From Escherichia coli (GTDB taxonomy: Bacteria > Pseudomonadota > Gammaproteobacteria > Enterobacterales > Enterobacteriaceae): a DNA stretch of 64,000 bases. The DNA lies in the NCBI RefSeq assembly GCF_029227855.1, contig NZ_CP074356.1, one strand, 5' to 3'. Below are positions 32,901 to 35,900 of this stretch, one piece after another (the first letter of the stretch is position 1; the number at the start of each line of letters is the position of its first letter). Made by a program: the position numbers.

Positions 32901-35900
32901 TACGTCTACACGCTGGCTAAAGGGAAGGGGAATGACGAGAAAAACTGGTATCTGACCAGTAAATGGGACGGCGTAACGCCAGCGGATACACCCGATCCCA
33001 TCAATAATCCCCCTGTTGTGGATCCGGAAGGCCCATCAGTTTATCGCCCGGAGGCCGGAAGCTATATCAGCAACATTGCCGCAGCCAACTCGCTGTTTAG
33101 CCATCGCTTACACGACCGTCTGGGTGAGCCGCAGTATACAGATTCACTGCATTCTCAGGGTTCGGCAAGCAGTATGTGGATGCGTCATGTCGGGGGGCAC
33201 GAACGTTTCAGGACCGGTGACGGCCAGCTAAATACTCAGGCTAACCGCTATGTATTGCAGCTAGGAGGCGATTTGGCGCAGTGGAGTAGCAACGCGCAGG
33301 ATCGCTGGCATCTTGGCGTGATGGCAGGCTACGCCAATCAGCACAGTAATACTCAGAGTAATCGTGTGGGTTATAAATCGGATGGGCGCATCAGCGGTTA
33401 CAGCGCAGGACTGTACGCGACCTGGTATCAGAACGATGCGAATAAGACCGGCGCTTATGTTGACAGCTGGGCGCTGTATAACTGGTTTGATAACAGCGTC
33501 AGTTCCGATAACCGTTCTGCTGACGACTATGATTCTCGCGGTGTAACGGCCTCTGTTGAGGGTGGGTATACCTTTGAAGCGGGAACATTTAGCGGCAGCG
33601 AAGGGACGCTGAATACCTGGTACGTCCAGCCACAGGTGCAAATCACCTGGATGGGTGTGAAAGATTCTGACCATATCCGGAAAGACGGAACACGCATTGA
33701 AACGGAAGGAGACGGAAACGTGCAAACGCGGCTTGGGGTGAAAACCTACCTGAACAGTCATCACCAGCGTGACAATGGTAAACAGCGCGAGTTCCAGCCT
33801 TACATTGAAGCGAACTGGATCAACAACAGCAAAGTCTACGCCGTGAAGATGAATGGCCAAACCGTAAGCCGTGATGGTGCGCGTAATCTCGGTGAAGTAC
33901 GTACCGGAGTTGAGGCGAAAGTAAATAACAACCTTAGCCTGTGGGGGAATGTCGGTGTGCAACTAGGTGATAAAGGCTATAGCGATACTCAGGGCATGCT
34001 GGGTGTGAAATATAGCTGGTAAACCGTATAAGCCGCATGTCGAAGATGCATGCGGCTTAATATTGCCGACTTCAAACGACTTTTAAATCCTCCTTTTTAT
34101 CCGCGATCGCGGATATCACAGTGTTTATCCCGTAGAGCGGATAAAATGTGTTTACAGATTGACTTTATCCTCACTAAAGGATAAAACTGATAATATCCCC
34201 TTGAGCGGATAAATTTGCTGTGGACGTATGACATGATGAGCTTTCAGAAGATCTATAGCCCAACGCAATTAGCGAATGCAATGAAACTGGTTCGTCAGCA
34301 AAATGGCTGGACGCAGAGCGAGCTGGCGAAAAAAATCGGTATTAAGCAGGCGACAATTTCCAATTTCGAAAACAACCCTGACAATACCACGCTCACGACA
34401 TTTTTTAAGATTTTACAGTCGCTTGAACTCTCAATGACGCTATGCGACACGAAAAATGCCTCGCCAGAATCAACAGAACAGCAAGATCTGGAGTGGTAAT
34501 GCCTAAACTTGTCACTTGGATGAACAACCAGCGGGTAGGCGAGTTAACGAAGTTAGCCAATGGCGCGCACACCTTTAAGTATGCACCGGAGTGGTTAGCT
34601 AACCGTTATGCCAGACCGTTGTCACTTTCGCTGCCATTGCAGAGGGGGAATATCACCTCTGATGCCGTATTTAACTTCTTCGATAACCTGTTACCCGATA
34701 GCCCGATTGTACGTGACCGGATCGTTAAACGTTATCATGCTAAATCCAGACAACCGTTTGATTTATTGTCAGAAATAGGGCGAGATAGCGTTGGTGCCGT
34801 AACGTTATTACCCGAAAATGAAACCATAACGCGCCCGATAATGGCATGGGAACAGCTCACTGAAGCCAGGCTTGAAGAAGTATTAACGGCTTATAAAGCA
34901 GATATCCCTCTGGGCATGATTAGAGAAGAAAATGACTTTCGCATCTCGGTTGCTGGCGCGCAGGAGAAGACAGCGCTGCTCAGAATAGGCAATGACTGGT
35001 GCATTCCGAAAGGAATAACGCCGACGACGCACATCATTAAATTACCGATTGGCGAAATCAGGCAGCCCAATGCGACGCTCGATCTCAGCCAAAGCGTTGA
35101 TAATGAGTATTACTGTCTGCTGCTGGCGAAAGAACTTGGGTTGAATGTGCCGGACGCAGAAATCATTAAAGCGGGAAATGTGCGCGCGTTAGCGGTCGAA
35201 CGTTTTGACAGGCGTTGGAATGCTGAGCGAACGGTTTTACTTCGCTTGCCACAGGAGGATATGTGTCAGACATTCGGTTTACCTTCATCGGTGAAATATG
35301 AATCAGATGGAGGCCCAGGCATCGCGCGGATCATGGCTTTTTTGATGGGGTCCAGCGAGGCGCTGAAAGATCGCTATGATTTTATGAAGTTTCAGGTGTT
35401 CCAGTGGTTGATTGGCGCAACGGATGGCCATGCAAAAAACTTCTCCGTATTTATTCAGGCTGGCGGCAGTTATCGACTCACGCCATTTTACGACATCATT
35501 TCAGCATTTCCGGTATTGGGTGGCGCAGGAATACACATCAGCGATCTCAAACTGGCAATGGGGCTTAACGCATCCAAAGGCAAAAAAACGGCAATCGATA
35601 AAATTTATCCGCGACATTTTCTGGCGACAGCAAAGGTGCTGAAATTTCCGGAAGTGCAGATGCATGAAATCCTGAGTGACTTTGCCAGAATGATTCCGGC
35701 AGCACTGGATAACGTGAAGACTTCATTACCGACAGATTTTCCGGAGAACGTGGTGACGGCAGTTGAAACCAATGTGTTGAGGTTGCATGGACGGTTAAGC
35801 CGAGAATACGGTAGTAAGTGAGATATGGGGTTTGGTCGTTGTTAATGAGCACGACAATCATGACCGCCAACGACTGGATTCTTCCTTGGTTTATGCTGGT

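What the first reader, a model, noticed from the sequence alone, without database searches (positions are those of the whole stretch)
34098..34501. Complete hipBA module with four operators and TAATG overlap
Four TATCC-N8-GGATA palindromes precede hipB, and the hipB stop overlaps the hipA start by 1 nt. This is the classical persistence toxin-antitoxin locus; it is unremarkable except that it sits directly between two segments that are degraded in K-12.
Basis: partly seen in the sequence, partly recalled or inferred. Interest (0 to 1): 0.25.

Follow-up and report, generated by a model that had tools for sequence, protein, structure and literature searches.

The report
Ordinary intact hipBA toxin-antitoxin operon

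Summary
Four exact TATCC-N8-GGATA palindromes lie at 34098-34115, 34126-34143, 34166-34183 and 34194-34211. hipB is 34233-34499 and hipA is 34499-35821. The hipB stop TAA and the hipA start ATG share base 34499.

The window is E. coli chromosome, 100% identical to strain JNEC-KY178. HipB is 86/88 identical to K-12 and HipA is 431/440. Every residue with a known role is wild type: G22, P86, D88, S150, the Gly-rich loop, D291, D309 and D332 in HipA, and W88 in HipB. All substitutions recur in other natural alleles. So this is a normal, non-hipA7 hipBA.

The promoter differs from K-12 in three ways:
- the O2-O3 gap is 22 bp instead of 21;
- GATAAT replaces TATAAT;
- a 13-bp stretch holding an IHF-like core is absent.

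Other non-K-12 strains share these states.

The remark about the flanks is partly right. The upstream autotransporter is intact here and frameshifted in K-12. Downstream, K-12 does not carry a decayed copy of this sequence. It carries unrelated DNA that starts exactly at the end of dif (35898-35925). The window is itself a deletion derivative, with an orphan LysR gene and a truncated fimbrial subunit gene.

Already known; low interest.

The parts
34029..34059 (+). Strong hairpin just after the stop codon of the upstream autotransporter gene (34022). It is terminator-like and probably insulates hipBA from upstream transcription.
   Evidence: 12-bp stem, -23 kcal/mol, z = -3.84, 0 of 200 shuffles fold as well. 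There is no clear U-run, so a terminator function is inferred.
34098..34115 (+). HipB operator O1, TATCCGCGATCGCGGATA
   Evidence: exact match to the consensus. Identical in K-12.
34126..34143 (+). HipB operator O2, TATCCCGTAGAGCGGATA
   Evidence: Identical in K-12. The gap to O1 is 10 bp.
34159..34164 (+). Candidate -35 hexamer TTGACT, between O2 and O3
   Evidence: Read from the sequence. A 17-nt spacer leads to TAAAAC (34182-34187). Inferred; the mapped K-12 start site could not be consulted.
34166..34183 (+). HipB operator O3, TATCCTCACTAAAGGATA
   Evidence: The gap to O2 is 22 bp here and 21 bp in K-12.
34182..34194 (+). Two candidate -10 hexamers: TAAAAC (34182-34187) and GATAAT (34189-34194). 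K-12 has TATAAT at the second.
   Evidence: The consensus scan reports no promoter here in either the window or K-12, so the assignment is inferred.
34194..34211 (+). HipB operator O4, TATCCCCTTGAGCGGATA
   Evidence: One change from K-12 in the N8 centre, A to G, shared with L003 and L005.
34233..34499 (+). hipB, an 88-aa Cro/C1-type HTH antitoxin and autorepressor
   Evidence: The protein is WP_001296726.1, shared with several other strains.
34490..34493 (+). GGAG Shine-Dalgarno sequence for hipA inside the end of hipB, 5 nt before the ATG. This arrangement fits translational coupling.
   Evidence: Read from the sequence. Inferred.
34499..35821 (+). hipA, a 440-aa Ser/Thr kinase toxin
   Evidence: It is 431/440 identical to K-12, and all key residues are kept.
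35898..35925 (+). Chromosomal dif site (XerC/XerD). It is a neighbour of the module, not part of it.
   Evidence: 28/28 match. KOPS polarity flips at this position. PMC5638614 calls hipA 'adjacent' to dif.

Best explanation
This is the canonical chromosomal hipBA type II toxin-antitoxin operon of E. coli, intact and of wild-type (non-hipA7) kind.

Established knowledge from K-12, applied here by near-identity:
- HipB dimers bind the four TATCC-N8-GGATA operators cooperatively. Together with HipA as co-repressor they shut off the promoter, which lies between O2 and O4.
- hipB and hipA are co-transcribed. hipA is probably translationally coupled through the TAATG overlap and the GGAG inside hipB.
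- HipB holds HipA inactive on the DNA.
- Lon degrades HipB through its disordered C-terminal tail.
- Freed HipA phosphorylates glutamyl-tRNA synthetase at Ser239. Uncharged tRNA-Glu then activates RelA, (p)ppGpp rises and growth stops, which is the persistent state.
- HipA switches itself off by autophosphorylating Ser150.

Because the operon lies 77 bp from dif, loss of the terminus DNA also removes hipB synthesis, and the remaining HipA arrests such cells.

Shown here: the sequence anatomy and the conservation of every residue and site involved. Inferred: that the proteins and the promoter behave as in K-12.
For: - Four exact operators, against 0.07 expected by chance.
- The 1-nt TAATG overlap, the same as reported for E. 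coli in PMC4150777.
- HipB is 86/88 identical to K-12. Both changes, A73T and N85D, fall in the disordered tail (residues 73-88), and W88 is kept (PMC3376134).
- HipA is 431/440 identical. G22, P86, D88, S150, residues 151-156, D291, D309 and D332 are unchanged. Their roles are described in PMC7758455, PMC10627512 and PMC6581861.
- PDB 3DNT carries Q at position 309, where the window has D.
- Pfam finds HipA_C and Couple_hipA in HipA and HTH_3 in HipB. The NCBIfam HipB equivalog scores 184.5 bits against a cutoff of 79.
- The locus is syntenic (lsrK, autotransporter, hipBA, dif) with K-12.
- All nine HipA substitutions recur in other natural alleles. The haplotype that includes K119Q is exact in 185 genomes.
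- The promoter variants (22-bp gap, GATAAT) are shared by five other non-K-12 strains.
- The link between dif and hipA and its consequence are in PMC5638614 and PMC7326373.
Against: - Nothing here tests activity.
- Four spacer SNPs between the operators appear private to this strain: only 1 of 5426 genomes has the exact 61-mer 34140-34200.
- The consensus promoter scan finds no sigma-70 match in the operator region, but it finds none in K-12 either.
- The IHF-like core upstream of O1 in K-12 is missing here, so regulation may not be identical to K-12.
Confidence: 0.93

Rival explanations
1. The module is intact but quantitatively different from K-12. The lineage-specific promoter has a 22-bp rather than 21-bp O2-O3 gap, GATAAT rather than TATAAT, no IHF-like core, and four private spacer SNPs. 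HipB also has two substitutions in its tail. Together these could shift the autoregulation set-point or HipB turnover, and so the persister frequency.
For: The differences are documented. The published K-12 spacing is 10/21/10 (PMC4150777). The tail (residues 73-88) is the Lon degron (PMC3376134).
Against: The 22-bp gap and GATAAT are the common non-K-12 state, and the HipB allele is shared by many strains. These are therefore normal variants under apparent purifying selection. All ten-base operator half-site pairs are invariant. No phenotype data exist.
Confidence: 0.1
2. HipA here is a naturally attenuated or non-toxic allele because of its nine substitutions, which include a cluster at residues 104-119.
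For: Nine amino-acid differences from K-12, five of them within residues 104-119.
Against: All nine are conservative or surface-type changes found in other full-length natural alleles. None touches the Gly-rich loop, the catalytic residues or the known dimer-interface residues. hipA has 37 nucleotide differences but only 9 amino-acid changes, as expected under purifying selection.
Confidence: 0.04
3. This is a high-persister (hipA7-like) allele.
For: None.
Against: G22, D291, P86 and D88 are all wild type. The known high-persister changes are G22S, D291A, P86L and D88N (PMC7758455).
Confidence: 0.01

Closest known systems
E. coli K-12 hipBA (b1508/b1507; HipA structures 3DNT, 3HZI, 4YG7, 2WIU)
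   Same: Gene order, the 1-nt overlap, protein lengths of 88 and 440 aa, four TATCC-N8-GGATA operators with identical half-sites, all catalytic and regulatory residues, and the chromosomal position between the yneO-type autotransporter and dif.
   Different: - 2 HipB and 9 HipA substitutions.
- O2-O3 gap of 22 bp against 21 bp.
- GATAAT against TATAAT.
- One base changed in the N8 centre of O4.
- 13 bp upstream of O1, holding the ATCAACGCCTTA IHF-like core, absent.
- Four spacer SNPs.
hipA7 and clinical high-persister alleles (G22S/D291A, P86L, D88N)
   Same: Same gene.
   Different: None of these changes is present.
Shewanella oneidensis hipBA; E. coli O127 hipBST
   Same: HipA-family kinase with an HTH HipB; four operators in Shewanella (PMC4150777).
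   Different: Only distant similarity: PDB 4PU3-type HipA scores E = 7.6e-30 against about 1e-294 for K-12 HipA. The operator sequence and spacing differ, and hipBST is a three-gene system.

Membership tests
HipBA type II toxin-antitoxin (E. coli K-12 type) | Toxin with the HipA N-terminal (Couple_hipA) and HipA_C kinase domains | tested here: met
   PF13657 scores 96 bits (cutoff 22.5) and PF07804 scores 176.5 bits (cutoff 30.5); full-length match to the K-12 HipA structures, E about 1e-294.
HipBA type II toxin-antitoxin (E. coli K-12 type) | Kinase active-site and regulatory residues present (S150, Gly-rich loop 151-156, D309, D332) | tested here: met
   all are invariant against K-12; the crystallised 3DNT chain has Q309 where the window has D. 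The roles of S150 and the loop are given in PMC10627512 and PMC6581861. The roles of D309 and D332 come from my own knowledge of Correia 2006 and Schumacher 2009.
HipBA type II toxin-antitoxin (E. coli K-12 type) | Upstream Cro/C1-type HTH antitoxin HipB with a disordered C-terminal tail ending in W88 | tested here: met
   the NF007271 equivalog scores 184.5 bits against a cutoff of 79. HTH_3; 86/88 identity, W88 kept, and A73T and N85D fall in the tail.
HipBA type II toxin-antitoxin (E. coli K-12 type) | hipB-hipA order in one operon with a 1-nt overlap | tested here: met
   TAATG at 34497-34501. PMC4150777.
HipBA type II toxin-antitoxin (E. coli K-12 type) | Four TATCC-N8-GGATA operators upstream of hipB, spaced 10/21/10 bp | tested here: met
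   four exact sites. The spacing is 10/22/10, a 1-bp variant shared by other non-K-12 strains.
HipBA type II toxin-antitoxin (E. coli K-12 type) | HipA arrests growth by phosphorylating GltX Ser239, and HipB neutralises it | not testable with these tools
   Needs expression and phosphorylation assays. Inferred from 98% identity.
hipA7 / high-persister alleles | G22S and D291A, or P86L, or D88N | tested here: not met
   G22, D291, P86 and D88 are all wild type.
Chromosomal dif (XerCD dimer-resolution site) | The 28-bp E. coli dif sequence at the point where KOPS polarity converges | tested here: met
   28/28 at 35898-35925. KOPS count is 4(+)/0(-) to the left and 0(+)/7(-) to the right.

The most novel reading that the evidence does not exclude
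The least ordinary reading not excluded has two parts. First, the non-K-12 promoter architecture seen here (22-bp O2-O3 gap, GATAAT, no IHF-like core) may be the species norm, with K-12 the outlier. The textbook K-12 regulatory model (10/21/10 spacing, IHF input) would then misdescribe most E. coli, and basal HipA release and persister frequency would differ between lineages. Second, the exact borders of dif beside hipBA may be hotspots where alternative gene cassettes are exchanged.
Probability: 0.12. Interest if true: 0.35.

Novelty: already known. Interest (0 to 1): 0.08.

Why it matters
It matters little. The result confirms that a clinical E. coli isolate carries a normal, non-hipA7 hipBA operon, so genotype gives no reason to expect heritable high persistence. 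Two minor points have some value. Several features usually quoted for the hip promoter (21-bp gap, TATAAT, IHF-like core) belong to the K-12 lineage rather than to the species. Also, hipBA sits directly beside dif, where flanking DNA is replaced from the very edge of the site.

Tried and rejected
- **Rfam:** a scan of 33500-37500 at E <= 1 gave no RNA family.
- **Promoter and terminator scan:** no promoter was found in the operator region of either the window or K-12. The tool requires T at position 6 of the -10 hexamer and 9 of 12 matches overall. It therefore cannot decide between the TTGACT/TAAAAC and the GATAAT candidates.
- **Primary papers:** Black 1994 (PMC205607), Schumacher 2009 (PMC2764309), Schumacher 2012 (PMC4831868) and Schumacher 2015 (PMC7502270) are not held. 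The mapped transcription start and the IHF site position could not be checked.
- **Terminator after hipA:** the fold of 35810-35930 is no better than shuffled sequence, z = -0.07.
- **Xer-exploiting mobile element (IMEX) at dif:** no second dif-like site with up to 9 mismatches exists in the window or in the K-12 locus, so there is no evidence for a bounded element.
- **Private HipA substitution:** K119Q looked private among eight loci, but the exact haplotype is in 185 genomes.
- **K-12 as a decayed version of the window's LysR segment:** rejected. The K-12 670-bp segment has no similarity anywhere in the window.

Full report
**Observation**

Reading the sequence and a pattern search confirm the finding exactly. 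TATCC-N8-GGATA occurs at 34098-34115, 34126-34143, 34166-34183 and 34194-34211. Shuffled sequence gives 0.07 matches per 64 kb, and none of 100 shuffles reached the observed count. The gaps between the operators are 10, 22 and 10 bp.

hipB runs from ATG 34233 to TAA 34497-34499. hipA runs from ATG 34499-34501 to 35821. TAATG is therefore a one-base overlap. The finding's coordinates stop at the hipA start codon, so the whole module is 34098-35821.

**Identity**

The stretch 34040-35960 is 100% identical to the chromosome of E. coli JNEC-KY178, a human clinical isolate from Japan. Of 5426 complete E. coli genomes, 5425 give a match, and 4562 cover at least 80% of the query. K-12 is 96.3% identical. 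RefSeq annotates hipB and hipA at exactly these positions.

HipB is 86/88 identical to K-12. Its two changes, A73T and N85D, both lie in residues 73-88. That is the disordered tail shown to be the Lon degradation signal, and W88 is retained (PMC3376134). The same HipB protein accession occurs in several unrelated strains.

HipA is 431/440 identical. The differences are S35N, I104L, D107N, V110I, H112R, K119Q, T343A, R382K and S424T.

The following HipA positions are unchanged:
- the hipA7 positions G22 and D291, and the other high-persister positions P86 and D88 (PMC7758455);
- the autophosphorylation site S150 and the Gly-rich loop 151-156 (PMC10627512 and PMC6581861);
- D309 and D332.

The crystallised chain 3DNT has Q at position 309, where this protein has D.

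Family searches agree. Pfam finds Couple_hipA and HipA_C in HipA and HTH_3 in HipB. The NCBIfam HipB equivalog is passed with 184.5 bits against a cutoff of 79. Both proteins match the solved K-12 structures end to end.

**Are the substitutions unusual?**

They are not. Seven other loci show the same changes in different combinations, a mosaic pattern. K119Q looked private in that sample, but the 63-base haplotype containing it is exact in 185 genomes. hipA differs from K-12 at 37 of 1323 nucleotides but at only 9 codons, which fits purifying selection.

**Promoter**

The alignment with K-12 shows identical operator half-sites but five kinds of difference:
- a 13-bp segment present in K-12 is absent here, between 34080 and 34081;
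- there is one extra T between O2 and O3, so the gap is 22 bp against the published 21 bp (PMC4150777);
- GATAAT (34189-34194) stands where K-12 has TATAAT;
- one base differs in the centre of O4;
- there are four SNPs in the spacers.

Five other non-K-12 strains share the extra T and GATAAT. These include APEC O1 and an O103:H2 strain. Those two are therefore the common state, and the K-12 lineage is the variant.

The four spacer SNPs are rarer. Only the source genome has the exact 61-mer 34140-34200.

The 13 bp missing here contain the only IHF-core match (ATCAACGCCTTA) upstream of the K-12 operators. Among the loci sampled, that core occurs only in the two K-12-type alleles. PMC3376134 mentions an IHF site upstream of hip. 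I could not read Black 1994 to confirm that it is this one, so the link is an inference.

The -35 and -10 hexamers cannot be assigned with these tools. Either candidate pair, TTGACT-17-TAAAAC or the GATAAT hexamer, places O3 and O4 over the core promoter. Repression by occlusion holds either way.

**Mechanism**

Taken from K-12 by near-identity: HipB dimers bind the four operators cooperatively, with HipA as co-repressor (PMC3920265). Lon removes HipB through its tail. Free HipA phosphorylates GltX Ser239, which triggers RelA and (p)ppGpp production and growth arrest (PMC8262856). Autophosphorylation of Ser150 switches HipA off.

A GGAG lies 5 nt before the hipA ATG, and together with the overlap this suggests translational coupling (inference). 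A strong hairpin at 34029-34059 follows the upstream gene, with z = -3.84. It probably insulates the operon.

**Context**

Upstream, the ECSE_1600-family autotransporter gene (28554-34022) is intact here and frameshifted in K-12.

The 28-bp XerCD site is at 35898-35925 with a 28/28 match, 77 bp after hipA. KOPS motifs are 4(+)/0(-) to its left and 0(+)/7(-) to its right, as expected for the true dimer-resolution site. The adjacency is known and has a consequence: when terminus DNA is degraded, loss of hipBA lets HipA arrest the cell (PMC5638614; PMC7326373).

Homology with K-12 ends exactly at the last base of dif and resumes at 40073, inside the usher gene. In between, K-12 has 670 bp with an AraC-type remnant and no similarity to anything in the window. 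K-12 is therefore not a decayed copy of the window's LysR segment.

The K-12 type is the majority, with 3233 genomes at 80% coverage or more. The window type is found in 492 genomes. APEC O1 has a third sequence from the same breakpoint.

The window is itself degraded. Relative to strain AREA_499 it lacks 7.6 kb between 37299 and 37300. That leaves an orphan LysR gene (36219-37118) and an N-terminally truncated fimbrial subunit gene.

**Verdict**

This is a correct and accurate observation of a textbook locus, intact and wild-type in kind. It is already known and of low interest.

Noticed in passing
window 35898-35925: The chromosomal dif site (28/28 match to E. coli dif) lies 77 bp after the hipA stop. 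KOPS (GGGNAGGG) orientation flips exactly here: 4(+)/0(-) on the left and 0(+)/7(-) on the right. hipBA is transcribed toward dif.
   Followed up: yes
window 35926-40072 vs L002 10899-11568 and L010 13848-16252: Sequence similarity between strains breaks exactly at the last base of the XerD arm of dif. At least three unrelated sequences follow it: the LysR type here (492 genomes), the K-12 AraC-remnant type (3233 genomes) and an APEC O1 type. No second dif-like site was found, so the mechanism is unexplained.
   Followed up: partly
L009 13806-16573 (E. coli AREA_499): A 2.8-kb insertion carrying a SIR2-family gene and an ISNCY transposase remnant sits 1-2 bp to the left of dif, between hipA and dif. 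The other border of dif is therefore also a site of structural change.
   Followed up: partly
window 37299/37300; LysR gene 36219-37118 (-); fimbrial pseudogene 37296-37535: Relative to AREA_499 the window lacks 7.6 kb. The missing stretch holds glutamine amidotransferase, aldo/keto reductases, other oxidoreductases, an AraC remnant and the 5' end of fimA. This leaves the LysR regulator without its divergent operon and the fimbrial major subunit gene without its N-terminus. The yde fimbrial operon here is probably not functional, although its chaperone and usher genes are intact.
   Followed up: partly
window 40081-40098: A fifth perfect TATCC-N8-GGATA (TATCCAGGTCGCAGGATA) lies inside the fimbrial usher gene. 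It is conserved in K-12 (L002 11577-11594, 8 bp inside the ydeT remnant) and in APEC O1. Chance expectation is 0.07 per window. HipB has been reported to bind such palindromes at other promoters (PMC3920263), but this site is within a coding sequence.
   Followed up: partly
window 34080/34081 vs L002 about 9040-9055: The 13 bp absent here contain the only IHF-core match (ATCAACGCCTTA) upstream of the hip operators. Among the eight loci compared, that core is present only in the two K-12-type alleles. An IHF input to hip may therefore be specific to the K-12 lineage.
   Followed up: partly
window 28554-34022: An intact 1822-codon ORF encodes an ECSE_1600-family autotransporter (RefSeq annotates 5421 nt). 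The K-12 counterpart is a frameshifted pseudogene.
   Followed up: partly
population level: Only 4562 of 5426 complete E. coli genomes cover 80% or more of the hipBA-dif query. Some carry truncated hipA or almost nothing, for example an ST648 strain with 15% coverage. Natural loss or disruption of hipBA therefore seems fairly common.
   Followed up: no
window 16001-24000: GC skew is locally negative (-0.059) in an otherwise positive left arm (+0.05 to +0.11). The cause was not examined.
   Followed up: no
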